Of a stretch of DNA of 64,000 bases, positions 2,715 through 56,980 are shown in pieces (position 1 is the stretch's first letter; every line of letters starts with the position of its first letter). The notes under the pieces are model-generated. The model did no database searches. It was not told the DNA's origin and worked only from the letters and a program-made list of their open reading frames with translations. This stretch comes from Ginglymostoma cirratum (Eukaryota). The DNA is taken from positions 31,109,996 through 31,173,995 of the forward strand of contig JAHRHZ010000222.1 of assembly GCA_024137785.1 (NCBI GenBank), read 5' to 3'. A program made the position numbers and the translations under genes.

Positions 2715-3138
2715 ATTTGGTGGAAGTCACTTGCTACACTTGAAAGTGGCAAAATGACACTGTACCTCAAACAATTGTATTAAAATTATTATTTTGCAGG
2801 GGTCTGGATCTAGGCGAGTTTGCAGTGAGCTGTACGGACAGTACAGGCCAGGCCAAATTTCAACCATTTGTTGCTGTAATAGTTCTACGATTATAGGTTA
2901 CTTTAATACACTCAGTTCACGATATCCACAAGGGATTGGGGCACGACCTTCCTGCATATAATGTGAAACACACTACCACTCCTACGTACCTCAAAGGACC
3001 ATGATGTTTACTGAGGCAAACTGGGCGAGACAATGAGATAAAAAGGGGTCTGGGGCGACTTCGTGAGTACAAGGGTAGCAGATAGCAAGGAGTGACTGCA
3101 CAATACGTAGTTTTGAAGACCTCAAATATATATTCGAA

Positions 3139-4743
3139 TAGTGATAACACAGTGTGAAACTGGAGGAACACGGCAGGCCAGGCAGCATCAGAGGAGCAGG
3201 AAAACTACCGTTTCTGGGTGGGAGAGATGGGGGAGGGGGAAGGGAGCTCTGAAATGAATAGAGAGATGAGGGGTGGGGCTGGGGAAGGTAGGTGGGATGG
3301 TGATAGATGAGTGCAGGTAGGCAGCAGTGGGAATTGGTCAGTAGGGTGGGAGGAGCGGATAGGTGGGAGAGAAGACGGACAGGTCAAGGAGGTAGGGATG
3401 TGAGGAAGGGTTGGTTATGGGATGAGGTTGGGGGTGGGGAGATTTTGAAACTAGTAATGTCCACATTGAGGCCATTGGGTTGTAGGGTTCCAAGGCGGAA
3501 TGTGAGGTGCTGCTCCTCCAGTTTCCGGGTGGCATCGTTGTGAGACTGGAGGAGGCCCAGGATGGACATGTTGTCCAAGGAGTGGGAGGGGGAGTTGAAA
3601 TGGTTCGTGACTGGAAGGTGTTGTCGTTTGTGGCGAACAGAGCACAGGTACCCTACAAAACGGTCTCCGATGTCCTCTTATTTCAAGGACCGCAACATCC
3701 CCCCTTCAAATGATCAAAAACGCTCTTGACTGCATCTCTTGCATTTCCCGTACCTCTGCCCTCACACCCCCTCCCTGCAACAAAAACAAAGACAGAATCC
3801 CCCTGTCCTCACGTATCATCCCACTAACCTCCGGATTCAACGTATCATTCTCCACCACTCCCACCACCTGCAGTCTGAGTCCACAACCAAAGATATATTT
3901 CCCTCCCCACCCCATCTGCCTTTCATAGGGACTGCTCTCTCCATGACTCCCTCATCCGCTCCACACTCCCCACCAGCCCCACCACTCCCAGCATCTTTCC
4001 CTGCAACCGCAAGAAAGTGCTACACCTGCCCCTACACCTACCCCCTCATCTCCATCCAAGGACCCAAAAAAACCTTCCACATCAGACAGATGTTCACTAG
4101 AGGTTCCGCTAATGTGGTCTACTGCATCTGCTGCTCCCAATGTGGCCTCCTCTACTTCTGTGAGACCAGCAGAGGCTCGGAGACCGCTTTGTAGAGCACC
4201 TACACACTGTTCGCGACAAATTATAACACCTCCTAGTTGCGAGCCACTTCAACTCCCCCTCCCACTCCCTGAACAACATGTCCATCCTGGGCCTCCTCCA
4301 GTCTCACAACGATGCCACCTGGAAACTGAAGGAACAGCACCTCATATTCTGCCCTGGAACCCTACAATCCAAAGATCTCAATGTGGACTTTACTTGCTTC
4401 AAAATCTCCCCACCCCCAACCTCATCCCATGACCAACCCTTCCTCTCATCCCCTCCTCCTTGACCTGTCCGTCTTCTCTCCCACCTATCTGCTCTTCCCA
4501 CCTCACTAATCAATCCCCACTACTGCCTACCTCCACTCACCTATCACCATCCCACCTACCTTCCCCAGCACCACCCCTTCCTCTATTTATTTTAGAGCTC
4601 CCTTCTCCCTTCCCCCATTTCTGAAGAAGGGTCTCAACCTGAAACGTCAACTTTCCTGCTCCTCTGATGCTGCCTGGCCTGCTGTGTTCCTCCAGCTCCA
4701 CACTGTTATCTCTGACTCCAGCATCAGCTGTTCTTACTATCTC
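3139..4743. mobile_element. Penelope-like element, fold-back insertion: minus arm ~3139-3665, plus arm ~3666-4743; GIY-YIG remnant
   Basis: Plus arm encodes decayed PLE C-terminus (PPVLTYHPTNLRIQRII; CYTCPY; NVVYCICCSQCGLLY; EQHLIF..GTL...LNVD). Minus arm is its inverted 3' copy. 10-bp TSD TATATTCGAA at 3129-3138 and 4744-4753. Confidence 0.9.
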
Positions 4744-4972
4744 TATATTCGAAGTGACTCTTTTGGATTTTAATTGACAATTACTTAAATTGACTTGGTA
4801 TTGTCACTTCTGGGTAATACGTCTTGCCTGGTTCATAACAGAGACAGTTTGAAGCTTGCACAAAAAAGAAATCAATTCAAGGCAGAAAAGTCTTAAGGAC
4901 GATGGGGAAAACCGAAACTGACAAATGATATTGCATAAATTACAGCAGAGTAATCACAACTCTTTCTCTTGT

Positions 4973-5631
4973 TTAGAGTTAACAACGTGTAGAGCTGGAT
5001 GAACACCGCAGGCCAAGCAGCATCAGAGGAGCAGGAAGGCTGACGTTTCAGGTCTAGATCCTTCTTCAGAAATGGGGGAGGGGAANNNNNNNNNNNNNNN
5101 NNNNNNNNNNNNNNNNNNNNNNNNNNNNNNNNNNNNNNNNNNNNNNNNNNNNNNNNNNNNNNNNNNNNNNNNNNNNNNNNNNNNNNNNNNNNNNNNNNNN
5201 NNNNNNNNNNNNNNNNNNNNNNNNNNNNNNNNNNNNNNNNNNNNNNNNNNNNNNNNNNNNNNNNNNNNNNNNNNNNNNNNNNNNNNNNNNNNNNNNNNNN
5301 NNNNNNNNNNNNNNNNNNNNNNNNNNNNNNNNNNNNNNNNNNNNNNNNNNNNNNNNNNNNNNNNNNNNNNNNNNNNNNNNNNNNNNNNNNNNNNNNNNNN
5401 NNNNNNNNNNNNNNNNNNNNNNNNNNNNNNNNNNNNNNNNNNNNNNNNNNNNNNNNNNNNNNNNNNNNNNNNNNNNNNNNNNNNNTTCCCCTCCCCCATT
5501 TCTGAAGAAGGATCTAGACCTGAAACGTCAGCCTTCCTGCTCCTCTGATGCTGCTTGGCCTGCGGTGTTCATCCAGCTCTACACCTTGTTATCTCAGATT
5601 CTCCAGCATCTGCAGTTCCTACTATCTCTGA
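4973..5631. mobile_element. Young PLE fold-back insertion spanning an assembly gap
   Basis: Near-identical inverted arms (~4976-5085 minus, 5486-5631 plus). 15-bp TSD AACTCTTTCTCTTGT at 4958-4972 and 5632-5646. Hammerhead cores at 5042-5069 (-) and 5502-5529 (+). Confidence 0.9.
5086..5485. other. Assembly gap (400 N)
   Basis: Run of N. Confidence 1.
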
Positions 5632-6167
5632 AACTCTTTCTCTTGTCTGTTCACAGCACAGGAGTCACTCTGTAGGTCAGCCTGGGAGGGACTGGCGTAC
5701 TTCATTATTGATGAATCAGATGGATTTTTACACCAAACAACAATAGTTACATTGTCACTGTTTGGCTAGCTGTTATTCCAGATTTTTACGAAATTCAAAC
5801 TTCACCACTTGCTCTAGCAATACTTATAGCAATGTCCTCGTCTCAGAAGGGTGTTTTTCTACATTACTTGTCCAAAGACCCTGTGACTATGCCACCCTTC
5901 CTCTTATTTTCATTCCGCAAGAAGACAGTATAACTTCAGAAAACGCTGCAGTCTTTAGATATATAGTTGTTTCGTGTAATGTGTAACATACCAAATATCA
6001 TATTTATTGTTTCACTAAAAGAACTTTCACCAGGACAAGATATATTTCCACCTCCGAAAGTTGACATAAAAGCCTATACTTTACATCATCCCTATTATAT
6101 CCGTAAAGTTGCAAACAAATTGACTCCCTTGATTATAGCAACGGAGATAAAGAAATTCTCCACTCAC

Positions 6168-6237
6168 CTGCTGAAGAGATTGAACAAAATATAATCAGTT
6201 CTACTAAAAAGCAATTTGTTGTTCCATACGTCTCCAT
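6168..6237 (-). CDS. Exon 1 (signal peptide) of the B7-H6-like gene
   Basis: taaATGG start; encodes METYGTTNCFLVELIIFCSISSA, then G|gtgagt strong donor. 70 nt, phase 1, splices in frame to the V exon (G+TT=Val). Confidence 0.8.
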
Positions 6238-6307
6238 TTAAAGCCGAATTGTAATAAAATTACATAATTGATGAACAAACAACATCCCACCGTCTTAACA
6301 GAAAAAT

Positions 6308-6335
6308 GAAAGCGAAAGTAAATAGCACCGGAAGT
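6308..6335. promoter_or_regulatory. IRF element (ISRE-like) plus ETS site, 70-100 bp upstream of the B7-H6-like ATG
   Basis: GAAAGCGAAAGT (6308-6319) fits the IRF-E consensus GAAA(G/C)(T/C)GAAA(G/C)(T/C). ACCGGAAGT (6327-6335) is a consensus ETS site. Confidence 0.6.
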
Positions 6336-7019
6336 TACAGGCGTGAGGTAAAATAATTAAAGTAAACGCATTTATTTATGAAGACCCAAGATACACCTCA
6401 ACAGTAACTTGTGTCATCGCCCTGAGCATTTGTAAACAAGTTAAAAAAAAACCGGTTTGCCAAAATCTTCATTAAGATTGTGCTGTTTTAAAAGGGACCA
6501 TTACCACGTGGGAACGAAGAAGATTTGAAAGAAAGGACTCCTTTTGTTCAGAACAAAGCAAATACTAAATGGCGAAAATCTGAGATAAAAACTGAAAACG
6601 CCAGAACTATTGAGCAGACTGAGTAAACTCAGAGGTTAATGCTTCAACCTGAAATTCTGTAGAAATGATTTAAAAAGGCACATATGACACTTTAAAAATG
6701 ATTAAAACAAATGTCTGGAGCACAGACAATGTCGTGATAAGGAGCAACAAAGTTGCAGAAGAGTCTGAGGAATGTTGTGATATAACTTGGATTTCAAGAG
6801 TCACGTATCAGCGACTGTGCTGGAGGACTGTAACTACAGCAGCTGTACGGCATAAATGTCTGTTCTGAGATTCTCGTGTGTGTGGTCCAAACATAGTTTG
6901 AACAAACATTTTCAGGTGTTGTTGGAGCATATCAAAACAGAAGAGCCCTATTAAACCAGATATGCTGTATTAAAAGCCAGCTGATTCAGCTAAGGCTGTA
7001 AAAATATAAATGATACATA

Positions 7020-7720
7020 AAAAAAGTACTGTGGCTACAAGAGCAGGTTAGGGACTGGGAATTCTGCTGAGATTGGAAACTCATCACCTGACTCGTTAAA
7101 GCATGTCCACCAACTGAAAGGCACAAATCAGGACTGATGTAATAATCTTCACTTGCCAAGTTGGGTGCAGCTCCAACAACGCTCAAGTAGCTTGACACCA
7201 TCCAGGACAAAGCAGCACACTTGACTGGCATCCTGTCTAACACCTCCAACATTTACTCCCTTCACCACCAGAGTGACAGCAAAGCGTGCTATTTACAAGA
7301 TGTGCTGTAGTAACTCACAAAGGCTCCTGTTGACTGGACCACAACATTTTGCTTACCTCACCCTATCAATGCCAGTGTTAAGGTCAAGGTGGCAAAGTGG
7401 TTACTATGCAGTGGCAAACCTAGCTCTGTCAACCCTGCAAAAGCCTCCTCACCAACATCTGGAGACATGTTCTGCACCTCAATACCAGGCAAGACCATCA
7501 CTAAGCTCAACACCATCCAGGGACCCCATTCACCACCTTAAATAATCACCTCTACCCATATGTATCATATACAAGGTGCACCATCCATGGCATAAATGAC
7601 AATAATCCAATAAGCATCCTACGACAGTAAGATAGCACCTGCCAAATGTGTTACCTTTACCATCTAATTGGACAGGACAGGATGCATGTAAACACTGACT
7701 ACAGGTTCTCCTCAAAGTCA
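7020..7720 (+). mobile_element. Decayed L2/Crack-like LINE fragments (related pieces at ~16845-17210 and ~19160-20570)
   Basis: Recurrent block gcagctccaacaac.ctcaag.agcttgacaccatccaggacaaagcagc and a shared 3' tail. Clade assignment is by recognition only. Confidence 0.55.
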
Positions 7721-9294: not shown

Positions 9295-9640
9295 GGTGGT
9301 GTGTTGGCTTGGTAGTTAACACTGCTGTCTGATGGCGCCAGGAACCCAGATTCGATTCCATCCTTGTGACTGTCTGTGTGGAGTTTTCACATTCTCCCGG
9401 TGTCTGCGTGGGTTTCCTCCAGGTGTTCCAGTATCCTCCCTCCGTCCAGTAATGTGTGGATTAGGTGAATTGACCATGATAAATCGCACATAGTGTCCAG
9501 AGATGTGTAAGCTAGGTGGATTAGCCTTTGGAAATGTGAGGTTACAGGGATAGATCTGGGTGAGATGCTCTTTGGAGGGTCAGCATAAATTTGATAGAGT
9601 GAATGGTCTGCTCCCACATTTTAGGGATTCTATGATTCTA
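9295..9640 (+). mobile_element. tRNA-derived V-SINE (HE1-like)
   Basis: tRNA-like head, then the V-domain gtgtggagttt.cacattctccc.gtgtctgcgtgggtttcctcc and a ...tctatgattcta tail. Confidence 0.8.
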
Positions 9641-9731
9641 ATATTGCTCAGAAATCTGAGAGGAAAGTGCACTGCAAGTTTTATTTTGAAAGAAAAAGAA
9701 GTTTTACAAGGCAAGATAATCAATTCATGTT

Positions 9732-13359: not shown

Positions 13360-15900
13360 TTTACAATGATTTAACGGACAGCAACGGAGGCAGAGTTGCT
13401 AACTTGGTGGACAACACAAAGTGGAATAGGAAAATATGCCATGAAAGAGACATAAGGAAGTTGGAGACAGCAACAGATAGATGGAGTGAGTGGGCAAAAA
13501 ATTGAGGGATGGATTTTAATGTGGGAAAGTGTTCACTTTGGCAGAAGGAAAGACGACGCACAGTGTTACTTAAATGGAGAATGGCTTCAGAATTCTGAGA
13601 TACAGAGGCATCTTGCTGTTCAAGTGCACGAGTCACAAAAACCTAGCATGCTGAGACAGCATATAAATCAAGAAAGCTAATGGGATGCTATAATTTACTA
13701 CAATTACAGAGATGGTGGTGCTGGATGGTTTAAAACACAAAGGTGGATAAATCTCTGGGACCTGCTCAGGCATATCCTAGATTTCCGAGAAGCTTGGGAT
13801 GATTGCTGGGCCCCTTGCTGAGATATTTGTATCATCGATAGCCACAAGTGAGGTGTTGGAAGACCGAAGGGATGCCAACGTGCTGCCAATATTTAAGGAA
13901 AGGGGCAAGGAAAAGCCAGGGAACTATTGACTGGTAAGCCTTACATTGGTGGTGGGCAGGATTTACATGTACTTGGAAAGGCAAGGACAGATTAGGGATA
14001 GTCAACATGGCTTTGTGCGTGAGAAATCATGTCTCACTAACTTGATTGAGTTTCTTGAAGTAGTAACGAACAGGATGAATGACGGCAGAGCGGTATGCAT
14101 GATCAATATGGACTTCAGAAAGTCAATATGGACAAGCTTCTTCACGGTTGATTGATTAGCACGGTTAGATCACATGGAATACAGGGAGAATTAGCCATTT
14201 GGATACAGAACTGGTTTGAAGGTTGAACACAGGAGGGTGGTGGAGGGTTGCTTTTCAGACTGGTGACCTGTGAAGAGATATGCCACAAAGGTTGGTGCTG
14301 GGTCCACTGCTTTTCATCATTTATATAAATGACTTGGATGTGAACATAGAGGTATGGTTAGTAAGTTTGCATATGACACCAAAATTGGAGGTGGAGAGGA
14401 CAGCAAAGAAGGTTACCTCAGAGTACAATGGGATCTTGATCAGATGGGCCAATGGGCTGAAGAGTGGCAGATGGAGTTCAATTTAGATAAATGTGAAGTG
14501 CTGCATTTTGGAAAGGCAAATCAGAGCAGGACTTATACACTGAATGGTAAGGTGCTGGGGAGCGTGACCTTGGAGTGCAGGTTCATAGTTCCTTAAAAGT
14601 AGAGTTGTGCGTAGATACTGAAGAAGGCGTTTTGTTTGGAGACAGTAAGGACTGCAGATGCTGGAAGCTAGAGTCAATAAACGTGGAGCTGGAAAAGCAC
14701 AGTAGATCAGACAGCATCCGAGGAGCAGGAAAAAGCAATATTTCAGGCCGAAACCCTTTGTTCAGTGCAATGAGTTTAGGAGTTGGGAGGCTGTACAGGT
14801 CATTGGTTAGGCCACTTTTGGAATACTGCTTGCAATTCTGCCAAAGGATGTTGTGAAACAAGAAAGGGTTCAGAGAAGATTTACAAGGATGTTGCCAAGT
14901 TTGGAGGGTTTGAGCTACAGAGAGAAGCTGAGGGGTGACATCATAAAGATTTATAAAATCATGAAGGGCACGGATAGGGTGAATAGACAAGGACTTTTCT
15001 GGATGGGGTGGGGGAGTCCAAAACTAGACGGAATAGGTTTAAGGTGAGAGGGGTAAGACATAAAAGTGACCTAAAGGGTAACTTTTTCCACACAGAGGGT
15101 GGTGCGTATATGGAATGAGCTGCCAGAAGAAGTGGGGGAGGCTGGTACAATTACAACATTTAAAAGGCATCTGGATGGGTATATGAATAGGAAGGTTTAG
15201 AGGGATAGAGGACAAATGGGACTAGATTTATTCAGGATATTTGGACAGCATGGACGAGTTGGACTGAAAGGTCTATTTTAATGCTGTACATCTTTATGAC
15301 TCTTGAGAAAAATCAAACATAAAAGTATGGATGTTACGCTTTAGATATACAGGTCATTGTTGAGACCATGTCTCAAACACTGTGTCCAGTTTTGGTCTCC
15401 TAATTGAGGAAGGATGTAAGTGGGTTGGTGGAGATTCAGGAGGTTTACTAGATGGACACCTGGAATGACTAGGTTGTCTTATGAGAATAGGTCAGGCTGG
15501 GCTTGTTTCCAGTGGAGCTTTAAGGGTGAGGGGTGATTTGACTGAAGTGGATAGGATCCTAAAAGATGCTGACAAGGTAGATGTGGAAAAGATGCATTTC
15601 TTTGTGGGTCAGTCCAGAACGAGAGGGCACCCTTTGTAGTCACCTCTTCTGGAAAAAATTAAGAAATTTATTTTTCTTTGAGAGCTTTGCTATTTTAGAA
15701 CTCTGCCTCAGAAGAGGGTGGAAGCAGGAACATTGCTTACTGTTAAAACAGACCTAGATAAATTTTTGCTTGGCTAGGGAATCAAAAGATCATTGGGGAT
15801 AGAAGGGAATATGGAATTTGAAACACTTAGATCAGCTATAATCTTAATAAATGGCAGAGCAGGCCTGAGGGCCCAAATACACTATTTCTGCCAGTATTTT
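13360..15900 (+). mobile_element. Cluster of CR1/HER1-type LINE fragments in POP4 intron 5; main copy ~13705-15300 with a nested PLE tail at ~14640-14765
   Basis: RT motifs in ORFs: SQHGFVREKSCLTNLIEF, PQ..VLGPLLFIIYINDLD, SKFAYDTKIGG, WQMEFNLDKCEVLHFG. Confidence 0.9.
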
Positions 15901-18867: not shown

Positions 18868-19711
18868 CTGTCAGAAGGAATTCAAGAATTATCTGAAAGC
18901 TATAAACAGCTTTTCCTGAGGGTTGGTAATTGCAGCTCCAACAAATGATGTTAGACTTTACCAAATATTAACATTGTCCTAAAAACATAATATTTTATAC
19001 TTTAAATCCATGAATGTAAACACATTATGAAATTATACAATTCCCACTTACTGTGCATATTTACACAAAATTACAGGATATAAAGCATGAAGCATAAATC
19101 AACAACAAAAAGAAACAAAACCAGGTACACCACCCACCTTCGACCAACACATCAGAACTGATAAAGGCAAACAAACAGTCTTGTTGACCCTGCAAAATCC
19201 TCCTTACTAACATCTGGGGATTTGTGCCAAAATTGGGAGAGCAGTCTCACAGACTAGTCAAACAACAATTTGATATAATCATACTCACCAGTCATAAAAA
19301 TTACAGACAACATCTCAGACAAGATCATTCTCCTCTCTGGGTATGTCCTGTTGCACACTCATGACAAACCCACTGGAAGTGGCAGCACAGTGGAATACAG
19401 TTGTGAGGAAGTTGTCTACAGTGAATCTGGACCCTTACAGTCTCATGGCATCAAGTCTGACCATGGATAAGGAAGGCTCCTGCAGTTTCCCCCCATCCGT
19501 CAACTGATTAATCAGTAGTGGTGAAAACTAATTGACAGAAGCACAGAGGTAGGCAATGGCATCGAATGTATTCTGGGAGGGAGAACCTCAACATCGATCA
19601 CAAGGAATAAAGGACATAGCTGCTTTAAATATTATGGCTAAGAGCAGGTGAAATGCTGAGAATTTTGGAGGAAGTAATTCTCTTTGATTGGCCTGTTCAC
19701 CCAGGAATATT

Positions 19712-20281
19712 GAGATAACAAGGCATGGGGCTGGATGAACACAGCAGGCCAAGCAGCATCACAGGAGCAGGAAAACTCGACGTTTCGGGCCTAGACCCTT
19801 CATCAGAAAAGGCCCGAAACGTCAAGTTTTCCTNNNNNNNNNNNNNNNNNNNNNNNNNNNNNNNNNNNNNNNNNNNNNNNNNNNNNNNNNNNNNNNNNNN
19901 NNNNNNNNNNNNNNNNNNNNNNNNNNNNNNNNNNNNNNNNNNNNNNNNNNNNNNNNNNNNNNNNNNNNNNNNNNNNNNNNNNNNNNNNNNNNNNNNNNNN
20001 NNNNNNNNNNNNNNNNNNNNNNNNNNNNNNNNNNNNNNNNNNNNNNNNNNNNNNNNNNNNNNNNNNNNNNNNNNNNNNNNNNNNNNNNNNNNNNNNNNNN
20101 NNNNNNNNNNNNNNNNNNNNNNNNNNNNNNNNNNNNNNNNNNNNNNNNNNNNNNNNNNNNNNNNNNNNNNNNNNNNNNNNNNNNNNNNNNNNNNNNNNNN
20201 NNNNNNNNNNNNNNNNNNNNNNNNNNNNNNNNNGCCTTGTTATCTCGGATTCTCCAGCATCTGCAGTACCTTTTATCTCTC
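19712..20281. mobile_element. PLE fold-back insertion in POP4 intron 2, nested in an older LINE, spanning a gap
   Basis: 15-bp TSD TCACCCAGGAATATT at 19697-19711 and 20282-20296. Hammerhead core CTGATGA-A-GGGTCTAGGCCC-GAAAC-GTC on minus at 19779-19806. Confidence 0.9.
19834..20233. other. Assembly gap (400 N)
   Basis: Run of N. Confidence 1.
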
Positions 20282-20647
20282 TCACCCAGGAATATTCTCC
20301 ATTTGGCTGTATGAGTGCAGCTCCAACAATACTTAAGGCATTTGACACCATTAAGGATAAGGTAACCTACTTTCCTGAACCTCATTCACCATCTTTAAAA
20401 TTCTTTCCCTCCCGCACCAATGCACAGTGGCAGCAGTGTATACCTGCTACAAGAAGCACTGCTGCAACTCTACAAGGCTCCTTTAACATTAGCTTTCAAA
20501 CCTGAAACTACACCACCTAAAAGAACAAGGGCAGGAACCACTTGCAAGTTCCTTGCTGAGCCACACACCATCCCATGGATGTCAGACAATCCGGATTTCT
20601 GTAGATTCCCGAATGTGCATTTTGGGTCATGCATATGCTTTCTGACT

Positions 20648-25205: not shown

Positions 25206-25723
25206 CAACAATATAGAGATTTTGTAAAGAGAAATCATTGCTTTGCTAAATGAAGTTGTGGAGAGTGTCAGCTTTAAGATTAACCTTCAAGGTAAAAGGA
25301 ATTTCAGGGTTTCAGTAGGGGAAAGTATAAAGAATGAGACAAACAGATGTTATGGAGATAATAGAAAACAACAGATCAGAAAGGAGAATGAAGCTTAAAA
25401 TCAGGGTTGTAAAATTCACCACTTTTCGACTTGGTGTCAGATCATACCCAGGAAAATTCCAAAGCCATTGACAGGTATTACAGTAGCTGGTTGGAACTGA
25501 ACATGGCTTTGAATACTAATTATTCAGGAGGAAATATTTATCTCATGCACCTTTAATTGAGACAAGCAGCATGAGGTTATCGAAACAACCCCCAAAGAAT
25601 CTGAAGCCAGAACAAGCTGGCTGCTAAGCAGTGTGTATGAGAAATGAAGCTGTGCCTGCGAAGTCCGTCAATAACGATGAGAAAGGCTTTGCTAACTGAA
25701 ACGCGGTCTATATGAATCTTGGA

Positions 25724-25814
25724 TAACAAGGTGTAGAGCTGGATGAACACAGCAGGCCAAGCAGCATCTGAGGAGCAGGAAGGCTGACGTTTCGGGCCTA
25801 GACCCTTCTTCAGA
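25724..25814 (-). mobile_element. Solo ~100-bp PLE terminal unit with intact hammerhead core in POP4 intron 1
   Basis: Flanked by AATCTTGGA at 25715-25723 and 25815-25823. Core CTGAAGA-A-GGGTCTAGGCCC-GAAAC-GTC at 25786-25813 (minus). Confidence 0.85.
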
Positions 25815-25839
25815 AATCTTGGACATGTTAACTGAAGCT

Positions 25840-35235: not shown

Positions 35236-36021
35236 ATCCTCTGTCTAGTAGTTGGACTGGCGAGGGTGTCTACTTCAATTGGAATACCCTGCAACTCGAA
35301 TTCTCCACTTGCCACATTTTTCAATGATGTGGCATATTATAGTGCTTGTTAGGCACTAGTCCAGTTGGGCTTCAACTAGTAGATACTTTTGCACAGTTAC
35401 ACCATTAATCCCACATACCAAACATACAGTCTCGCAGTATCTCATTAAGGGTTAAACCAAAGTCATATGCCTCCACCAGTCATCCTAACCTCGTCAAAAA
35501 TCTCAATAAGGGATACCTGCTTCTTGAATTGCCAAATAAAAGTGATAGCATCTCAGAATTAGGGGAGACTTGGGGCCATAGTATTCTTTACCTAAAGGAA
35601 AGACTTTCATATCTAGTGCCTCAGGGAAAGTAAGGCTGCAAATAGCCAAAAAAGCTGAGGGTCCACAAGATGTCAGGAAAATTATTTCTTGCTTTACATC
35701 TACTCCAACGTCATTTACCCAGGAAAAAAAAACATGTTCTTTCCACATACTGCCCAGTCTTTGACAGCAGGATTGAATAAGCCAAGCTTCCCCAATAATG
35801 GCATGAATGCCAGAAATGCTTACCCCAATTCAAAGACAACTGTTCGAGCAAATTTCTTTAGGAATGTGCTTTTCTCTTGTTGCTACTGAAATAACTTCAC
35901 ACAGGCCAATATCCTGTTACCAAGTCACCCTTTATTTACACATGGCGAGTCCTTACACTGATCCAGCTCTCAGAGTGAACGAGATGTCTCACACTCCTGT
36001 TCTTATCTATTAGCCAGGGCT

Positions 36022-36668
36022 AACAAGCATGGGGCTGGATGAACACAGCAGGTCAAGCAGCATCATAGGAGCAGGAAAACTTGACGTTTCGGGCCTAAAC
36101 CCTTCAACAGAANNNNNNNNNNNNNNNNNNNNNNNNNNNNNNNNNNNNNNNNNNNNNNNNNNNNNNNNNNNNNNNNNNNNNNNNNNNNNNNNNNNNNNNN
36201 NNNNNNNNNNNNNNNNNNNNNNNNNNNNNNNNNNNNNNNNNNNNNNNNNNNNNNNNNNNNNNNNNNNNNNNNNNNNNNNNNNNNNNNNNNNNNNNNNNNN
36301 NNNNNNNNNNNNNNNNNNNNNNNNNNNNNNNNNNNNNNNNNNNNNNNNNNNNNNNNNNNNNNNNNNNNNNNNNNNNNNNNNNNNNNNNNNNNNNNNNNNN
36401 NNNNNNNNNNNNNNNNNNNNNNNNNNNNNNNNNNNNNNNNNNNNNNNNNNNNNNNNNNNNNNNNNNNNNNNNNNNNNNNNNNNNNNNNNNNNNNNNNNNN
36501 NNNNNNNNNNNNTTCAGAACCCTCTTCCCCTCCCCCATTTCTGATGAAGGGTTTAGGCCTGAAACGTCAAGTTTTCCTGCTCCTATGATGCTGCTTGACC
36601 TGCTGTGTTCATCCAGCCCCATGCTTGTTATCTCGGATTCTCCAGCATCTGCAGTACCTTTTATCTCT
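36022..36668. mobile_element. Young PLE fold-back inserted in the Gypsy 5' LTR, spanning a gap
   Basis: TSD (tct)ATTAGCCAGGGCT at 36006-36021 and 36666-36681. Cores at 36083-36110 (-, CTGTTGA variant) and 36541-36568 (+, CTGATGA). Confidence 0.9.
36113..36512. other. Assembly gap (400 N)
   Basis: Run of N. Confidence 1.
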
Positions 36669-39600
36669 ATTAGCCAGGGCTCCCTGATTGGGGCTGTTAA
36701 TCTGGTCCAAGCAGGGAACTTATATTCTATGAAGTCCACCTGGCTGACCTCGTTACAATCACTACAGATGCCATGCTTTAATGATTTAATTCAGAAGACA
36801 GCATGGAATTTGCATGCTCTCTGTGGTATAACAAATGATGTCTGCTCATCTTGAATTGGAGTCCTTGTGCCCCATTTGTGGGCCTCTGACAATTTTTCTG
36901 CCAACTTGACTCCATCTATCTTCCCAGAAGTACATTGATTTACTCTAATTCTTTGAGATCCTTGATAACACTTGGTTTTCTGGTGCTAACATGTGTTTAG
37001 ATTTTTGTGCAAAATGCATTTACTTCCTAACTGTATGTGAAAAGAACATAGAAATCACTGGGATGGGGATCAGCACAATGCAGTGATTATTCTTTCAGGG
37101 CTTACTATTGACAACTACAAAAAATAGACATAATTGTTCATCAGATTTGTTGAATTCTCAGAGGTTCGTTTCATTATCCACAAGACAGGGGGTCATTTTT
37201 AATTAACCTTCTTGTAACCAACTGAGGGATGAGGTGAAAAGGGAGTTGAGCAGTTCATTCCCCCCTCAGCCAGGAGCTTGACAATTTGGCGAATCCTTTC
37301 TGGAACGGTAATAATTTGGGGAACTTCACCCGCAAACTGGTCAAATCACATGGAATCTTTCTTGCTGTTACAGCCTGGTGTTGCTGTGTAAAATTCAAAG
37401 GAAATTCAAGATTACTGAAACGTTCTCCTCTCCCATTTTGAATATTGGTATTATACAGACCAGCAAGCAGATAAAGTTTAATTTAGTGATTTCCAAAATT
37501 TCACCAAAGAGTTTGCTCATCCAGAAAGAAGAACCAGTAAACCTGCTAAATGAGAACTACTGGTCTGACACATCTTGTATATTTCAAATGGAGCTCCATT
37601 ATGACCATTTACAAATAATATTGTTTACTTACTAGCTTTCTCCCTCCAGTCAGGGAATCAACTGTTAAAATCCAGCCTTTTCCTGTGGGCCTCAAAGACA
37701 TTATATGTGGACCACTGCCTGATGACTTGTGGTCAAAGATGTTTTCCAACGTAAACTTTTCACTAAGAGGTGAATGATGTGGCACATCCCACTGAATGGC
37801 GTGCTTTGCAGCAATGGCACAGAGACGTCATTCACAGTACTGGACACAGAGAGAATCTCAGCTTAAAGCAATACTGTGTTTGTGAACTGAAGGTCTGCCA
37901 TTGTTTAAAGCAGCCACTATTGAAGCCATCATGATTGAGGCCAAGGCCAGCAGTAGCACTTCAACAATTAGAGGTGGTGTCATGTATATCCCTAATCCTC
38001 CTCACATCTGCTTCTCTCTTAATCTTTAATCCACAAGCTTTTTTTTTAATTTCAAAGCTACAGTTGGTCTAAGCATCATCTCTTATATTATCCCTATCCT
38101 CATCACAAATTTTGTCCTTTCAGGTACCATGAAATTCAACCTGAGCAGGCAGTGGAGGAACAGACGTAGATGGAAGCCAAAGAAGGAAGATAATTATCAA
38201 GCAGAAACGCAATCATGCAGCCCAGAGGAAACCAATGATCAACTAACCTGAAAGTGGTTGATGATACCTTGAAACAGCAGCAGTGGGGGTTCAGGTTCAT
38301 CTTCCTGCTGCTGAATATGTGTATAGCTGTGTGAAGTTATTTATGAGAGGGAGTTCGTTGGAGCCTTCAGAAAATAGCACTGCAAGAGACATAGCAATAC
38401 TATATTGTGCCAAGCTCTGCCTACTCTACATAACCACTGGTCAATGCTTACTGCTCCTGTGCCATTGCCCTTGCCAAATTGGCACCTGGCAATGACATGT
38501 CTGAGAAGCATGAACACCTGGCACTAATACCCTTTTGTTTCAAAAACACGTCCATAATGTCATAGGTACAGACATCATGCAACTGCATTTTGCAAACAGT
38601 GCGATATTCAACAGTTAACACTAGCAATAAGTGAGTCTAACATTTGAATATTAAGGGCTTTGTGGAGGACATTGCCTTTACTTAGACATGGAACAGAGGT
38701 GGTCTCCTTTCTTCTCAGGACCAATGTTGCTTGGGGCTCCTGCAGCAGTTGCAAGTTGAGAGGAAAACAAAAGCAGCTTAAGGGATTTTAAAGTCATTCA
38801 TTACCACGCCATCTGGTATCACAGGAGAAAAATGGCATTTAATGCTACAGCCAACTATTTATCAAATATCTTCTGCCAAGAAGTGGTAAAAAATGTCATG
38901 GTCAGCTTGCTGACTTTCTCGAATGAAATGGAATACAGTCACTTTAATAAAGTGTGGAAAATACATTGATCGATTGTAACAGCAAATTGTGAGTGCTATT
39001 AATTTTCTTCTTATCTAAACCAGTCAAATGATTTTGGACTGGGCTGGACTAACAGACAGCCTCATTCACACCTTTATTAATAGCTAAATACAGATTGGCA
39101 ACCTGTATAATTCTTGTGGCATTAGTTAGAAGAGCTTCAAAATTACATTTGTATTTCTGAATTTCAGAAACCACGGATAAGCAAGTCTGCATTTAACAAA
39201 AACATTCTCTTTAATATGACAGTTAATGGACTCTATATTTTCATGTTCATGTTTATATAATCATTCATACTTTATATTGACTGACATTTTAAATATTATT
39301 AATTATTCCGCCAACTAACTATCGTCTTGAAGAGGATTTCATCCGACATTCTTATTGTCTAATCATCTTCGATGTAATTCCCCATGGGGATATATTTGGG
39401 GCATTTGAGTTCACACAATGTATTTTTATCACTTAATTAAAATAAGACAAATGGGTTTTTTTTCTTTAGTTTTTATTCCATCATTCATTTTTAAATGTGC
39501 CATTTATTTTGGCAGAAGGTAACGAATCCCAGTACAGCCTGCACCCTATTACAACAGTGCAAGATGTGAAATTGAATTCTGTGATATTGTGTGTGAAGTC

Positions 39601-41086: not shown

Positions 41087-43740
41087 CATAGAGTCATAGA
41101 GTTGTACAGCATGTAAACAGACCCTTCTGTCCAACTCATCCATGTCGACCAGATATCCTAAATAAATATAGCCCCATTTGACCCATATACCTCTAAACCC
41201 TTCCTAGTTATATACCCATCCAGATGCCTTTTAAATGTTGTAATTGTACCAGCCTCCCCCACTTCTTCTGGCAGCTTGTTCCATACACGCACCACCCTCT
41301 GTGAAAAATTTGCCCCATAGCAGCGTTTTAAATCTTTCCCCTCTCACCTTAAATCTATGCTTTCGAGTTTTGGCCTCCTCCACCTTGGGGAAAAGACCTT
41401 GGCTATTCACTCTATCCATGCCATTTTATAAACTTCTACAAGGTCACTCCTCAGCCTCCGATACTCCAGGGAAAATAGCCCCAGTCTATTCAGCCTCTCC
41501 CTACAGCTCAGAACCTGCAACCCTGGCAACACCCTTGTAAATCTTTTCTGAACCCTTTTAAGTTTCACAACATCCTTCCTATAGCAGGGAGACTAGAATT
41601 GAATGCAATATTCCAGATATGGCCTAACCAATGTCTTGTACAGCCATGACATGACATCCCAACTCATATACTCAATGCACTGATCAATAAAGGCAAACAT
41701 ATCAAACACCTTCTTCACTATTGTCAGAGACAAAAAAGCTGCAGATGCTGGAATCCAGGTAGATAAACAGGAGGCTGGAAGAACACAGCAAGCAGGCAGG
41801 ATCTGGAGGAAAGGAGCAGTCAACGTTTCAGGTATTACCCTTCTTCAGTTGACTGCTCCTTTGCCTGAGATACAGCCTGGCTTTCTGTGTTCTTCTAGCC
41901 TCCTGTTTGTCTACCAAACCTTCTTCACTATCTTGTTTACCTGGGACTCCACTTTCAAGGGACTATGAACTGCACTCCAAGGTCTCTTTGTTCAGCAATA
42001 CACCCCAACACCTTACCATTAAGTGTATAAGTCCTGCCCTGATTTGCCTTTCCATAAGGCAGCACCTCACATTTATCTAAATTAAACTCCATTTGCCATT
42101 CCTCCAACAATTGGCCCAATTGATCAAAATCCCGTTGTACCCTGAGGTAACCTTCTTCGCTGTCCACTACAGCAACAATTTTGGTGTCATATGCAAACTT
42201 ACAAATCATATCTCCTGTGTTCACATCCAAATCATTTACGCAAATGATGAAATGCAGTGGACCCAACACCAAACATCACAGCGCATCACTGGTCACATGC
42301 CTCCAGTCTGAAAAAAAATTCTCCACCACCACCCTTTACCAGTGAGTTAGTTCTGTATCCAAATGGCTAATTCACCCTCTATTCCATGTGATCTAACCTT
42401 GCTAACCAGTCTACCATGAGGAAGTTTGTTGAATGCCTTACTGATGTCCGTATAGATCAGATCCAACCCTCTGCCTTCATTAATCCTCCTCATTATTACT
42501 TCAAAAAACTCAGTCAAATTTTCACCCCCAATCAACTTTTGAAAGTTTTTGCCTAATACCGTCCAAATTGGCCTTCTTCCAATTTAGAACTTTAACTTTT
42601 AGATCTGAGCTATCCTTTTCCATCACTATTTTAAAACTAATAGAATTATGATCACTGGCCCCAAAGTGGTCCTGACACCTCAGTCAGCTGCCCTGCCTTA
42701 TTTCCCAAGAGTAGGTCAAATTTTGCTCCTTCTCTAGTAGGTACATCCATATGCTGAATCAGAAAATATTTTTCTACACACTGAACACATTCCTCTCCAT
42801 CCAAGCCCTTAACACTATGGCAGTCCCAGTCTATGTTTGGAAAGTTAAAATCCCCTACCATAACCATCCTATTATTCTTGCAGATAACTGTGATCTCCTT
42901 ACAAAGTTGTTTTTCAATATCCCGCTGACTATAGTACAATTCCAATAAGGTGATCATCCCTTTCGTATTTCTCAGTTCCACCAAAGTAACTTTCCTGGAC
43001 GTACTCCCAGGAATATCCTCCCTAATGCAACTGTAATGTTATTGCTAATCAAAAATGCCACTCCCCCTCCTCTCTTACCCCCACTTTGTATCCTTCCTAT
43101 AGCTTCTATACCCTAGAACGTTAAGCTGCTGGTCCTGTCTATTCCTGAGCCATATCTCTGTAATTGCTATGATATCCGAATCCCATGTTCTCAATGGCTT
43201 GAGTTCATCTGCCTTATCTGTTAGGCCTCTTACGTTGAAGTAAATGCAATTTAACTTATCAGTTCTACCTCGTTCTTTGCTTTGTTCCTGCCTGCCCTGA
43301 CTATTTGAATTACTCCTTTTCCCAACTGCACTAGTCCCAGACTGATGTATTTTCTCATTATCCCCCTGGGTCCCACCCCTCCTTACTAGTTTAAATCCTC
43401 CCATGCAGCTCTAACAAATCTCCCCATCAGTAAATTAGTCCCCTTCCAATTCAGCTGCAATCCATGCATCTTATACAGGTCAATTCTACCCCAAAAGAGA
43501 TTCCAATGAACCAAAATGTGAATCCTTCTCCCCTGCACCAGCTCCTCAGCCATGCATTCATCTGCTCTATTCTCCTATTCCTACCCTCACTAACTTGTGG
43601 CACCAGAAGTAATCCAGATATTACTACCATCGAGGGCCTGCTTTTTAAAGTCCTGCCTGACTTCCCATATTCTTGCCTCAGAATCTCAACCTTTTCTCTT
43701 CGTATGTCGTTAGTTCCATTATGTACAATGACCTCCTGCT
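41087..43740 (-). mobile_element. CR1/HER1 LINE with endonuclease and RT remnants, internally deleted
   Basis: APE motifs CIYFNVRGLTDKADEL, DIIAITEIWL, VGDFNFPNIDW, DLLLGN; RT motifs KAFNKLPHGRLVSK, VLGP...NDLD, KFAYDTKI. Confidence 0.92.
41722..41917. mobile_element. Mini PLE fold-back nested in CR1
   Basis: 14-bp TSD ACCTTCTTCACTAT at 41708-41721 and 41918-41931. Core CTGAAGA-A-GGGT-AAT-ACCT-GAAAC-GTT on minus at 41822-41848. Confidence 0.85.
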
Positions 43741-44715
43741 GCCCTTTGCTTGCCCCTGTCTGTTCTTAATTGTCTGATATTATATGAGCTGGTAGGCAGC
43801 AGCATGATGCCCATTTAAAGTTTACATCTCACCAGCATGATTTAGATGTAATCCGATCTAAAATGGCTGGAGCTTTCTCAGACAGATGGGTAGCTAAACT
43901 GCTCTACATTCATAAATGAAAATCACCCACCATTTTAGATATCTCTCTCTTCACAGTTGAGGTGTGCCTGTACCCCTTTGAATAATAAGTGTGGATAATA
44001 CCATTCAGAACTTGGCTAATGGAAATTACACGTCTAACACAACAAAGATTGCAACAGCACATACAGTTGACTTGTTCAGCTCATTGAACCTCATTGTGAA
44101 GATGACTACATCGCTGAGGTTAGTTCAATTCCATCACACAATTATGCATAGTAATTCTTCCAGTCAGTTCCCTTGGTGACATTTATCACTTATTGTTTGA
44201 CCACAAATATTCCAAAATATCAACAGAAATAAATACAAAATAAATAACAAAACTTTATAACTATGTGAATTGACTGCAAAACTTGTTCATAAATGAGCTT
44301 CAGAAAGTACATGCCCAATCCCATCGACTGCTCCATTAATTTGTTCCCCACTTTCCACATTAATAGCTATAGGACAATAAATGAGCATAAAGATGTTTAG
44401 TGTTGATGACTAGGTCCATCCAACATTGGGCAACAAGGAACAAATAATACCCTTTCTTCACTGCAACAATTCAGCTACTCCACCACTTCATAATAAAGGG
44501 ACAACAAATTCTTTTAAGTCAGATTAAAAGATCTCCAGCAAAAATCAAAATTGTTTGAGGGAATCATATCGATCCATTGTTGAGCATGATTACTTAGTTC
44601 AAAACAAATAAGCTTCCATTATTCAAAGTCATTTCTGAGCCTTAATTGAGCAATTTCGGTTCAATTTGCAGAACCCGACTTCACCTGATTTGAATAGACT
44701 GCAAGACAACAAATG

Positions 44716-44934
44716 CTACAAAAACAAATTTGCTGGAAAAGCTCAGCAGGTCTGGCTGCATCTGTGCAGGAAAAAAAAAGAGTTAATGTTTTGGGTCTGG
44801 TGACCCTTCCTCAGAACCCCAGTTCTGAGGAGTTCTGTTTTTTCTTCACAGATGCTGCCAGACCTGCTGAGCTTTTCCAGCAACCTTGTTTTTGTTCCTG
44901 ATTTACAGCATCCTCAGTTCTTTTGGTTTTTAGG
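44716..44934. mobile_element. Mini PLE fold-back (same terminal family as 28815)
   Basis: Inverted arms gctggaaaagctcagcaggtctgg / ccagacctgctgagcttttccagc. TSD CAACAAATG at 44707-44715 and 44935-44943. Confidence 0.85.
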
Positions 44935-44954
44935 CAACAAATGATGTTTTGAGG

Positions 44955-53477: not shown

Positions 53478-56400
53478 ATCAAGTCAGCGAAACGAAGGGG
53501 ATGGTCATTGACTTCAGGAAGTGGAGTGACGGTATGCCCCTATCTGCATCAATGGTGTTGAACTGGAAATGGTCGAAAGCTTTAAATTCTTGGGAGTGAC
53601 GATCACCTACAAACTGGCCTGGCCCATCCATGTTGACACAGTTGTCAAGAAAGCATAGCAACGTCACTACTTCAGGAGGCAAAGGCATTTCGGCATGTCC
53701 ATAAAGACTCTTACAAATTTTTCATGGATGCACCATCTGGATGCATCGCAGCATGGTACGGCAATTGCTCTTCCCAAGATCGCAAGAAACTACAGAGAGT
53801 GAACATAGCCCAGTCCATCACACAAACCAGCCTCCCATCCATTGACTTCATCCAAACTTCCCGCTGCCTTGAGAGAGCAACCAACATAATCAAAGACCCT
53901 TCCCGCCCCAGCTATACTCTGTTCAACCCTCTTCTGTTCAGGCAGAAGATATAAAAGTTTGTGTACACATTCAAACAGATTCAAGCACAGCTTCTTCCCC
54001 GCTGTTATTAGTCTTTTGAATGGACCTCTTTAATGTTAGTGTTGATCCCTCTGAGCACCTTATCGGCAGCTGTAACATTGTATCTTGCACTCTGTTTGGT
54101 CTGTAAAGCACATAAGACAACACTTTTCACTAAGGTTTTGGAGTAGATTTGTAGCTTGGGTTGTGTGTGTTGAGGCTGGTTGGCTCGCTGAGCTGGTTTC
54201 TTGTTTCGTAGATGTTTCATTACCCTGCTGGGTAACATCATCAGCGCAGCCTCCGTTGAAACATCGGTGTGTTTTCCTGCCTGGTTTTTAAACTCTGGAT
54301 TCCATTGAGATTGATCGCCTCACTTCCAGTTTTCCTTCGTAGTGGAGTGTATATGGGGTCAAGTTCAATGTGTTTATTAATAGCATGCTTTGTGGAATGC
54401 CAGGCTTCTAGGAATTCTCGTGCCTTTCTCTGCCTAGTCTGTCCCAGGATCTTGGTGTTGTCCCAGTCGAAGTGGTGGTTCTCCCTGTCCATGTGGATTG
54501 AGATGAGTGAGTATTGGTCGTGTCTTTTTGTAGCCAGTTGGTGTTCATGTACTCTTGTTGTTAGTTTCCTTCCTGTTTGTCCAATGTAGTGTTTCTCGCA
54601 GTCTCTGCAGGGATTCTTGTAGATGACATTGGTCCTGTCCATGGCGGGGAGTGGGTTTTTAGTTCGGGTGAGCAGTTGTCGAAGGGTTGACGTGGGCTTG
54701 TGTGCCACTCTGATGCCCAGAGGTCGTAGGAGTCTTGTGGTGAATTCTGACGTGTTCCTGATGTAGGGTAGTGTGATGAGTGTGTCGAGGCATGTAGAAT
54801 TTTTCTGATGCTGTTCGTGTAGGCATCTTCTGACCCAGTTCTTTGGATGTCCATTATCCTTGAAAACCTGGAAGAGGTATTCCTCCTCCTCTTGGCGTAG
54901 TTCCGTGTTGCTGCAGTGTGTTGTTGCCCTTTTAAATAGTGTTTGCACGCAGCTTCGTTTGTGTGTGCTGGGATAGTTACTGTTGAAGTTCAGTACCTGG
55001 TCTGTGTGTGTGGCTTTTCAGTGTACCTTCATTTGCAGTTCCCCACTTGTCTTGCGCTCTACCATGACGTCCAGGAATGGGAGCTGTTTGTTCTTCTCCT
55101 CCTCTCTGGTGAATTTTATTCCTGTGAGGGTGTTGTTTATAAGTTTATGTGTCTCCTCTAATTTAGTCCGTTTAAGGATGACAAAGGTGTTGTCTATGTA
55201 GCGTACCCACAGTTTTGTTTGGATTTGCGGAAGGGCAGTCCTTTCTAGTCTTTGCATCACTGCTTCTGCAATGAGTCCGGCCAGTGCAAACTGACCCGAC
55301 ACCGCAACTAGGCAACAAAATCCTCTGCACGCTGCAAAGACTTAAACAAACAGGACAGATCAACAAAACAGACTTCTTAAGAATGAAACCCAAAGGAACC
55401 AACACACCCTGATTCTACGGCCTCCCTAAAGTTCACAAGCTGGAAGAACCCTCAGACCCATAGTCTCCCTACCAGGCACTCCATCGCACAGTTTAGCCAA
55501 AGAACTACAAAGGAGACTCAGGCACCAAGTCAACAAGTCACCCCATTCTATCCATGCAGCCCCAGAATTCTTCAACACCATCAAAGACATAAAGATAGAT
55601 GACAAAGAGACCATGATATCGTTTGATGTCACTGCCCCATTCACATCAATAGACATACCACTAGCAAGGGAAACAACGACAATACTACTGGAACAAGAGC
55701 ACGACCCCAGTGAAACCATTTCCAAGGACAACATGCTCAAACTATTGGACCTATGCCTCATCACCCACTTCACTTTCAACAGCCATACATACAAGCAAAT
55801 CAACGGGACACCCATGGGATTATCTATCTCGGGACTCATAGCAGAAGCAGTGATGCAAAGACTAGAAAGGACTGCCCTTCCGCAAATCCAAACAAAACTG
55901 TGGGTACGCTACATAGACAACACCTTTGTCATCATTAAACAGACTAAATTAGAGGAGACACACAAACTTATAAACAACACCCTCACAGGAATAAAATTCA
56001 CCAGAGAGGAGGAGAAGAACAAACAGCTCCCATTCCTGGACATCATGGTAGAGCGCAGGACAAATGGGGAACAGCAAACGAAGGTACACTGAAAAGCCAC
56101 ACACACAGACCAGGTACTGAACTTCAACAGTAACTATCCCAGCACACACAAACGAAGCTGTGTGTGAACACTATTTAAAAGGGCAACAACACACTGCAGC
56201 AACACGGAACTACGCCAAGAGGAGGAGGAATACCTCTTCCAAGTGTTGAAGGATAATGGACATCCAAAGAACTGGGTCAGAAGATGCCTACATGAACAGC
56301 ATCAGAAAAATTCTACATGCCTCGACACACTCATCACACTACCCTACATCAGGAACACGTCAGAATTCACCACAAGACTCCTACGACCTCTGGGCATCAG

Positions 56401-56980
56401 AGTGGCACACAAGCCCACGTCAACCCTTCGACAACTGCTCACCCGAACTAAAAACCCACTCCCCGCCATGGACAGGACCAATGTCATCTACAAGAATCCC
56501 TGCAGAGACTGCGAGAAACACTACATTGGACAAACAGGAAGGAAACTAACAACAAGAGTACATGAACACCAACTGGCTACAAAAAGACACGACCAATACT
56601 CACTCATCTCAATCCACATGGACAGGGAGAACCACCACTTCGACTGGGACAACACCAAGATCCTGGGACAGACTAGGCAGAGAAAGGCACGAGAATTCCT
56701 AGAAGCCTGGCATTCCACGAAGCATGCTATTAATAAACACATTGAACTTGACCCTATATACATTCCACTACGAAGGGAAGCCGGAAGTGAGGCAATCCAT
56801 CTCAACGGACTCCAGAGTTTAAAAACCAGGCGGTAAAACACACAGCCGCTTCATCGGAGGCTGCACTGAGGATGTTACCCAGCATGGCAATGAAACATCT
56901 GCAAAACAAGAAACCAGCTCGGCAAGCCAACCAACCTCAACACTTTTCACTGTACACATGACAATAATAAATCAAATCAA
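53478..56980 (+). mobile_element. Rex1/Babar-like LINE 3' end (53478-54131), resuming at 56941-56980 after a PLE insertion
   Basis: SGCIAAWYGNCSSQDRKKLQRV...IIKDPS.P motif. The tail ...caacacttttcact|gtacacatgacaataataaatcaaatcaa matches the uninterrupted tail at ~46930-47070. Confidence 0.85.
54132..56940. mobile_element. Large PLE fold-back: minus arm ~54132-55283, plus arm ~55284-56940 with RT and GIY-YIG
   Basis: MISFDVT..FTSI, HFTFN..TYKQINGTPMG..ISG.IAE, WVRYIDNTF, LPFLD (RT); NVIYKNPCRDCEKHYIGQTGRKLTTRVHEH...REFLEAWHS (GIY-YIG). TSD (caa)CACTTTTCACT at 54118-54131 and 56938-56951. Hammerhead cores at 54211-54244 (-) and 56866-56899 (+). Confidence 0.95.

What the first reader, a model, noticed from the sequence alone, without database searches (positions are those of the whole stretch)
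3129..56951. Recurrent TSD-flanked fold-back PLE architecture with an asymmetric ~35-nt tail
Eight insertions (3139, 4973, 19712, 28815, 36022, 41722, 44716, 54132) each have two outward-facing 3' ends inside a single 9-16 bp TSD, so each pair is one event. In each, one arm stops about 35 nt short (e.g. at ...ttgttatc) and the other carries the extra tail (e.g. agattctccagcatctgcagttcctactatctct). This holds across unrelated terminal families and from 0.2 to 2.8 kb. Known: Penelope has inverted forms and a short 3' tail. Unusual here: the inverted form dominates. It points to a two-ended priming mechanism using two defined RNA 3' positions.
Basis: partly seen in the sequence, partly recalled or inferred. 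Interest (0 to 1): 0.7.

Follow-up and report, generated by a model that had tools for sequence, protein, structure and literature searches.

The report
Two-site-primed mirror-image Penelope insertions
These are real mirror-image insertions of a known kind of jumping gene (Penelope-like retrotransposons); the layout is already described, but their always lopsided ends suggest that the element likely copies its RNA from both cut DNA strands, using each of two start points exactly once.

Summary
Observation real: all 8 insertions have two outward-facing Penelope-like-element (PLE) 3' ends inside one 10-16 bp TSD, with the ~35-nt tail on one arm. Three contain 400-N gaps, so their lengths are unknown. 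Seven are related Neptune-type copies, one is Poseidon-type. This layout is published as the 'typical Penelope structure', and two RT start sites bracketing the tail, with extension on both strands, were shown in vitro. 'Inverted dominates' is overstated: about half of young insertions in a 1.23-Mb sample, single arms about 40%. What the sample adds: 68 of 68 TSD-bounded pairs carry one tailed and one tail-less end; either arm can be longer (27:26); single arms are tail-less or tailed equally (31:33); both ends show ~1.5-nt target microhomology and mirrored target bias; arm lengths correlate; short arms stop at the hammerhead's 5' edge. Best model (inferred): two staggered nicks each prime reverse transcription, one per start site, probably on one RNA. 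The scan has noted this before on other DNA (111 notes, 13 or more genomes). New members of a known kind; modest mechanistic value.

The parts
3129..4753 (.). Unit 3139 (family A, Neptune type): TSD 3129-3138/4744-4753; tail-less arm 3139-3663 (-), tailed arm 3664-4743 (+) with broken linker/GIY-YIG coding sequence; arms 86% alike
4958..5646 (.). Unit 4973 (A): TSD 4958-4972/5632-5646; tail-less arm 4973-5085 (-), 400-N gap 5086-5485, tailed arm 5486-5631 (+); hammerhead-like cores at 5042-5069 (-) and 5502-5529 (+)
19697..20296 (.). Unit 19712 (A): TSD 19697-19711/20282-20296; tail-less arm 19712-19812 (-), start of the other arm 19813-19833, 400-N gap 19834-20233, tailed end 20234-20281 (+)
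28802..30949 (.). Unit 28815 (family B, Neptune type): TSD 28802-28814/30937-30949; long tail-less arm 28815-30848 (-) with broken RT, Cys linker and GIY-YIG; short tailed arm 30850-30936 (+); paralogous empty sites found
36006..36681 (.). Unit 36022 (A): TSD 36006-36021/36666-36681; tail-less arm 36022-36112 (-), 400-N gap 36113-36512, tailed arm 36513-36665 (+); paralogous empty sites found
41708..41931 (.). Unit 41722 (diverged A-like): TSD 41708-41721/41918-41931; tailed arm 41722-41848 (-), tail-less arm to 41917 (+); inserted in another RT-encoding repeat whose copy at 26543-27749 is uninterrupted and holds the target once
44704..44943 (.). Unit 44716 (B): TSD 44704-44715/44932-44943; tail-less arm 44716-44817 (-), tailed arm 44820-44931 (+)
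54118..56951 (.). Unit 54132 (family D, Penelope/Poseidon type): TSD 54118-54131/56938-56951; tailed arm 54132-55278 (-), longer tail-less arm 55279-56937 (+) with broken RT and GIY-YIG; inner parts of the arms nearly identical
2617..2714 (+).
25714..25817 (-).
14634..14761 (-).

Best explanation
These are insertions of endonuclease-bearing Penelope-like retrotransposons, each made of two head-to-head partial copies inside one target duplication, and they were likely made by two-ended priming in which each cut target strand starts reverse transcription at a different one of two RNA start sites. Shown: head-to-head arms, a TSD of mostly 14-15 bp, one end at the short site (S) and one about 36 nt further 3' (T), never S+S or T+T, either arm longer, single arms of either kind, about 1.5 nt of target-RNA microhomology at both ends. 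Inferred: the RT-endonuclease works as a dimer and nicks both strands about 14-15 nt apart; one nick primes at S, the other at T, probably on the same RNA (S first leaves T free downstream; the T-primed RT would then displace the first cDNA, as these ORFs show no RNase H domain); the two cDNAs stop, most often at the 5' edge of the hammerhead motif, and are joined at their inner ends; if one side fails a single arm remains. The small 130-240 bp hairpins would be made anew at each landing, not moved as units.
For: Coupling: among 218 same-family head-to-head candidates, 79 of 164 with one tailed and one shorter end have a TSD, 0 of 54 other combinations do (Fisher p 3e-13; null 6 of 2000). Class-free rescan: 68 of 68 TSD-bounded pairs have one end at +22..+50 and one at +6 or less (2 further hits were element-internal repeats and were dropped; null 4 of 400). 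Poseidon family: 17 of 17 pairs among 28 non-window loci are one-tailed, 14 with TSD score 9 or more. Polarity: S arm longer 27, T arm longer 26, equal 16, unclear 2 of 71 gap-free units. Single arms: 31 S and 33 T of 64, TSD found for 13 S and 9 T. Microhomology: T ends 1.5 nt vs 0.48 shuffled (n=50, family A), S ends 1.63 vs 0.46 (n=71), 0 of 2000 shuffles reach either. Mirrored A-over-T bias outside both nicks (140:66 and 166:62, n=63). One-RNA hints: arms share the subfamily motif in 27 of 30 vs 10.6 shuffled; arm lengths correlate (both long 8, one long 8, both short 50; p 3e-5). In vitro: an anole Poseidon protein cuts and extends both strands, starts at two internal sites that bracket the tail, and is predicted to be a dimer (PMC11167929).
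Against: All mechanism steps are inferred from old genomic copies. In 8 of 66 units one arm is long while the other is short, and 5 of these short arms (6 if an early-starting arm is corrected for its start) stop near the same hammerhead edge, which a linear single RNA explains only by pausing or a template jump. Own-partner arms are nearest neighbours in only 17 of 35 (A) and 5 of 22 (B) units, and rare shared variants are few outside 2 of 16 homogenised D pairs, so one RNA versus two is not settled. The in vitro paper reports no difference in start-site use between strands and no target-RNA homology, whereas strict coupling and short microhomology are seen here. Asymmetric deletion at a palindrome's centre after insertion could blur the polarity test (recalled, not tested). 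141 of 392 ends have neither partner nor TSD.
Confidence: 0.68

Rival explanations
1. Dual priming on two RNAs: an asymmetric dimer holds two RNA molecules, one set at S and one at T, and each nick copies its own RNA.
For: Fits coupling, polarity, single arms and microhomology equally; explains long/short units whose short arm stops at the hammerhead edge; described as a possibility for L1 (PMC2837659).
Against: Needs an extra rule to forbid S+S and T+T; arm-length correlation (p 3e-5) and subfamily match in 27 of 30 are simpler with one RNA, though two RNAs from one source locus would also match.
Confidence: 0.2
2. Fold-back or self-priming: one strand is primed at the tail, the cDNA folds back and copies itself, and the endonuclease resolves the intermediate about 35 nt short (the self-priming and 'EN-mediated resolution' ideas in PMC3846280 and PMC8557442).
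For: Also predicts strict one-tail pairs and arms of one subfamily; 36 of 71 junctions abut or overlap directly; published proposals.
Against: Predicts that the tailed arm is never the shorter one, but the tail-less arm is longer in 27 of 71 units, by up to 2 kb; it does not yield tail-less single arms with intact TSDs (13 found); S ends show the same microhomology as T ends; RT starts at both sites in vitro.
Confidence: 0.09
3. The pairs are two independent insertions next to each other, or assembly artefacts at hairpins.
For: 13 of 84 units hold N gaps; 2 of 16 D pairs have near-identical inner arms that could be assembler collapse; no long reads were seen.
Against: One TSD encloses both arms far above the null; paralogous empty sites fit one target copy in 180 of 195 alignments; most arms differ by 4-12% or more, which collapse would erase; contigs of a diverged relative run from the tail of 3139 through the spacer into the left arm of 4973, though by under 31 letters a side.
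Confidence: 0.02
4. The 130-240 bp hairpins are a non-autonomous MITE-like family that moves as a unit.
For: 50 of 71 gap-free units are 300 bp or shorter.
Against: Arm lengths and junctions differ from copy to copy (shorter arm 6-103 nt) and form one series with 0.4-6 kb units that hold coding sequence.
Confidence: 0.03

Closest known systems
Inverted-pLTR insertions of EN+ Penelope-like elements (Pen2a_Av of Adineta vaga, PMC3846280; Fig. 2 legend of PMC8557442)
   Same: Head-to-head inverted pLTR, whole unit inside one TSD, 30-40 bp tail at one end only, assembly trouble at these structures.
   Different: TSD here peaks at 14-15 bp (8-10 bp in the rotifer examples); most units are ORF-less 130-240 bp stubs; strict one-tail coupling and arm polarity are counted here, and the passages read give no such counts.
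PAc (Poseidon of Anolis carolinensis) in vitro, PMC11167929
   Same: Two internal RT start sites bracketing the tail, both strands cut and extended, hammerhead in the pLTR, predicted dimer.
   Different: The text read does not link the two sites to inverted insertions or test coupling; it reports no strand difference in start sites and no target homology, whereas 1-4 nt microhomology is seen here.
L1 twin priming and dual priming (PMC2837659)
   Same: Both target nicks prime RT and give a TSD-bounded inversion.
   Different: L1 twin priming joins two different parts of the RNA and uses variable internal sites; here both arms repeat the same terminal sequence from two fixed sites about 36 nt apart.
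Opposite-strand minimal hammerhead pairs of Schistosoma PLEs (PMC4209133); animal non-LTR retrozymes (bioRxiv 10.64898/2026.07.22.740005)
   Same: Dual minimal hammerheads 100-700 bp apart on opposite strands were noted; short hammerhead-bearing PLE-derived tandem units occur in family A.
   Different: The passages read do not describe TSDs or tails of the opposite-strand pairs.

Membership tests
EN+ Penelope-like elements | RT followed by a C-terminal GIY-YIG endonuclease with the CxxC of the CCHH motif | tested here: met
   Translations of long arms show RT motifs, then VVYCICCARCGLLYIG (family A, sample copy), VYCIHCSQCDLLYTG (28815) and VIYKNPCRDCEKHYIG (54132), all in broken frames; Pfam RVT_1 for 54132 (E 2e-10), no Pfam hit for the decayed 28815 RT or for the EN pieces.
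EN+ Penelope-like elements | pLTR with minimal hammerhead motif | tested here: met
   10 matches to a CUGANGA-stem-GAAA pattern in the window, all in element ends; pattern after PMC4209133 and recall. Rfam found none; self-cleavage not tested.
EN+ Penelope-like elements | Direct or inverted pLTRs, optional 30-40 bp tail, TSD | tested here: met
   (median end difference 36 nt; TSD 14-15 bp in 41 of 84).
EN+ Penelope-like elements | RT groups with PLE/telomerase RTs in a tree | not tested
   No reference PLE proteins were fetched; no tree built.
Neptune clade (families A, B) | CX2-5CxxC motif in the RT-EN linker | tested here: met
   CNRRKCYTC (A) and CNRCRCNIC (28815); definition in PMC8557442. 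Nematis shares the motif and was not excluded.
Penelope/Poseidon clade (family D) | No Cys linker between RT and EN | tested here: met
   Continuous translation from RT into GIY-YIG without the motif.
MITE-like non-autonomous element | Copies of uniform length and fixed inner junction | tested here: not met
L1-type twin priming | Inverted and direct parts come from different, non-overlapping parts of the RNA | tested here: not met
   Both arms carry the same terminal sequence; it works like twin priming but is not the L1 product.

The most novel reading that the evidence does not exclude
Penelope-like elements integrate by obligatory two-site twin priming: one RT-endonuclease dimer copies one RNA twice, using each of its two start sites exactly once, one on each target strand, and both copies run to a fixed boundary at the 5' edge of the hammerhead. 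This one rule, shared by Neptune and Poseidon clades, would explain the inverted repeats, the one-sided tail and the solo pLTRs of the whole class.
Probability: 0.35. Interest if true: 0.6.

Novelty: new member of a known kind. Interest (0 to 1): 0.38.

Why it matters
How PLEs make their tandem/inverted structures is named as an open question in PMC8557442, and an in vitro system now exists (PMC11167929). The counts here turn a descriptive signature into sharp predictions for that system: double-primed products should always pair one S with one T end, either arm may be longer, and both arms may come from one RNA. The architecture itself is known, so the finding as written is not a new system.

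Tried and rejected
Rfam scan of the window: no hammerhead hit, 3 chance hits. Orthologous empty sites: none seen; only bases 2000-9300 were laid, on contigs of 4 of 16 listed runs, and repeats swamped the joint tables, so units beyond that stretch are untested. Loose-end counts at the two 3' sites in those runs were not used as a ratio, because an indel in the window copy confounds them. First end-calling by HMM end position overshot into flanks and misclassed some short ends; it was replaced by a class-free scan. One cross-family tail+tail pair passed the TSD threshold but shared an end with a same-family pair and was dropped; 3 of 142 cross-family candidates passed. A 6-kb upstream TSD search had too high a null to use below score 13. 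Arm-identity tests did not separate one RNA from two. The idea that the outer-to-inner identity gradient of 54132 records a template jump was rejected: 14 of 16 D pairs diverge as expected from independent decay, and 2 look homogenised after insertion or in assembly. Hammerhead cleavage as the source of the 5' boundary was rejected: ends peak 93-101 nt upstream of S, at the motif's start, not at the predicted cut 65-67 nt upstream. A left/right excess of tail-less arms (42:24) was not followed. Two of eight 200-kb stretches read N throughout and were left out of all counts. No structure or complex prediction was run: the ORFs are broken and a dimer is already predicted in print.
Full report
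Setting. The window is G000:C222:31109996-31173995 of a 4.36-Gb genome. It holds an exon of RNase P/MRP subunit p29 at about 11633-11740 on the minus strand. Earlier notes of the scan call such genomes shark; I did not test the taxon.

Observation. All eight sites have a minus-strand element end on the left and a plus-strand end on the right, enclosed by a direct repeat of 10-16 bp; scores were 10-16 against at most 9 for 56 mismatched flank pairs. In each, one arm stops about 35 nt before the other. Three units have a 400-N gap inside.

Identity. Long arms translate, in broken frames, to RT followed by a GIY-YIG domain with the CxxC typical of PLE endonucleases (definition in PMC8557442). Families A and B have the CX2-5CxxC linker of the Neptune/Nematis type and align with each other at 65-72%; family D (54132) lacks the linker, as Penelope/Poseidon does, and hits Pfam RVT_1. 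Element ends carry a minimal hammerhead-like motif, 10 matches in the window, which Rfam did not detect. No RT tree was built.

Sample. I fetched eight arbitrary 200-kb stretches of the genome; two read N throughout and were left out, which leaves 1,227,400 non-N bases with the window. Profiles built from the sample's own copies found 406 element ends. The union of two searches gave 84 TSD-bounded inverted units (A 52, B 27, D 5; 8 in the window). TSDs are 14-15 bp in 41 of 84, and the two ends differ by a median of 36 nt. For 17 of 84 units the flanks belong to a repeat with other copies in hand; in 16 of 17 those copies mostly fit one target copy, 180 of 195 alignments in all. The clearest case is 41722, whose host repeat is intact at 26543-27749. 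Each pair is therefore one event.

Does the inverted form dominate? Among copies at least 85% like their consensus there are 71 inverted units and 94 other ends: 64 single arms, 20 ends next to inverted family sequence without a recognised TSD, 10 at N gaps. That is about 52% inverted if all are counted (taking the 20 as about 10 units) and 71 of 93 (76%) among TSD-proven insertions. Over all ages 141 of 392 ends are unresolved. It is the commonest class, not an overwhelming one, and PMC3846280 already calls this layout typical.

Coupling. Of 218 same-family head-to-head candidates within 7 kb, 79 of 164 with one tailed and one shorter end have a TSD, and 0 of 54 with two tailed or two tail-less ends do (p 3e-13). 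A scan that ignores end classes found 70 pairs; 2 were repeats inside elements and were dropped; 68 of 68 have one end at +22 to +50 and the other at +6 or less, 9 of them starting 14-43 nt further upstream. Free choice between two sites would give at most half such pairs. The Poseidon family obeys the same rule in 17 of 17 pairs among 28 loci picked by likeness to the 54132 arm.

Which mechanism? Fold-back from a tailed first strand predicts that the tailed arm is never the shorter. In 71 gap-free units the tail-less arm is longer in 27, the tailed arm in 26, 16 are equal and 2 unclear. Single arms are tail-less in 31 and tailed in 33 cases, with TSDs for 13 and 9, so either site can start an insertion alone. 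Both kinds of end show about 1.5 nt of match between the target and the RNA sequence that follows the end, three times the shuffled value, and the bases outside both nicks have the same A-over-T bias on opposite strands. These points fit two nicks, each priming at its own site. In vitro, an anole Poseidon protein cuts and extends both strands and starts at two internal sites that bracket the tail, and a dimer is predicted (PMC11167929). One RNA copied twice is my preferred reading because it explains the ban on S+S and T+T; the arms match in subfamily in 27 of 30 and their lengths correlate. Against it, 8 of 66 units pair a long arm with a short one that often stops at the usual boundary, and sequence identity between arms does not decide. 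The absence of RNase H in PLEs is recalled, and is consistent.

Boundary. In 47 of 49 gap-free units of 240 bp or less, the longer arm reaches 80-112 nt upstream of S; ends peak at 96 (A) and 99-101 (B), where the hammerhead motif begins (93 and 97), not at its predicted cut (65 and 67). Either the RNA begins there, so that most stubs are primed on the 5' pLTR, or RT pauses there; this was not tested.

Literature seen. PMC11167929: parts 1-2 of 4 of the text (abstract, main text, start of methods). PMC3846280, PMC8557442, PMC4209133, PMC2837659 and bioRxiv 10.64898/2026.07.22.740005: passages around search terms only. No supplements were read; Fig. S2 of PMC11167929 may bear on end counts. Searches listed no paper whose title or abstract start reports strict one-tail coupling or two-site twin priming for PLEs; the library lacks most subscription papers, so this is not proof of absence. 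The scan's own notes hold 111 similar findings in at least 13 genomes, several with the same twin-priming reading and the hammerhead boundary; I read them after the main tests and do not count them as support.

Verdict. Real, single-event insertions with a known PLE layout, in new Neptune-type and Poseidon-type members. The strict coupling and the symmetric behaviour of the two ends are the useful addition. Interest 0.38.

Noticed in passing
window 11633-11740 (-): Exon of RNase P/MRP subunit p29 (Pfam PF01868, E 2e-10); nearby insertions probably lie in or around this gene.
   Followed up: no
window 54132-56937; L211: Inner parts of the two arms are nearly identical while each is 4-5% from the family majority, with 14 rare shared variants each: arm-to-arm conversion or assembler collapse.
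   Followed up: partly
sample stretches on C12 (105344-106656 of the 200-kb piece), C248 (135691-136538), C222 (146041-146514): Family A has a short internally deleted derivative, units of about 370-440 bp with one hammerhead each, in tandem inside inverted TSD-bounded units; retrozyme-like.
   Followed up: partly
window 14634-14761 and 41722-41917: Two separate PLE insertions lie within about 10 nt of the same position in two copies of one RT-encoding repeat; may be chance or a target hot spot.
   Followed up: no
sample, 9 of 68 pairs: The tail-less arm starts 14-43 nt upstream of the usual short site, always with a normally tailed partner.
   Followed up: partly
window 2000-2303: Contigs of about 4 kb in runs X13 and X15 match this stretch without differences and then leave it; possibly a transcribed exon.
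   Followed up: no
window 20648-20729; 48400-48493/49055-49148; 1116-1563/32037-32464: An 82-bp hairpin, a 94-bp direct repeat pair and a 448-bp dispersed repeat that do not belong to the PLE families.
   Followed up: no
sample stretch on C18 (125608-126146 of the 200-kb piece); on C222 (100531-101751): PLE units inserted into, or directly beside, other PLE units, one of them at the short site of its host.
   Followed up: no
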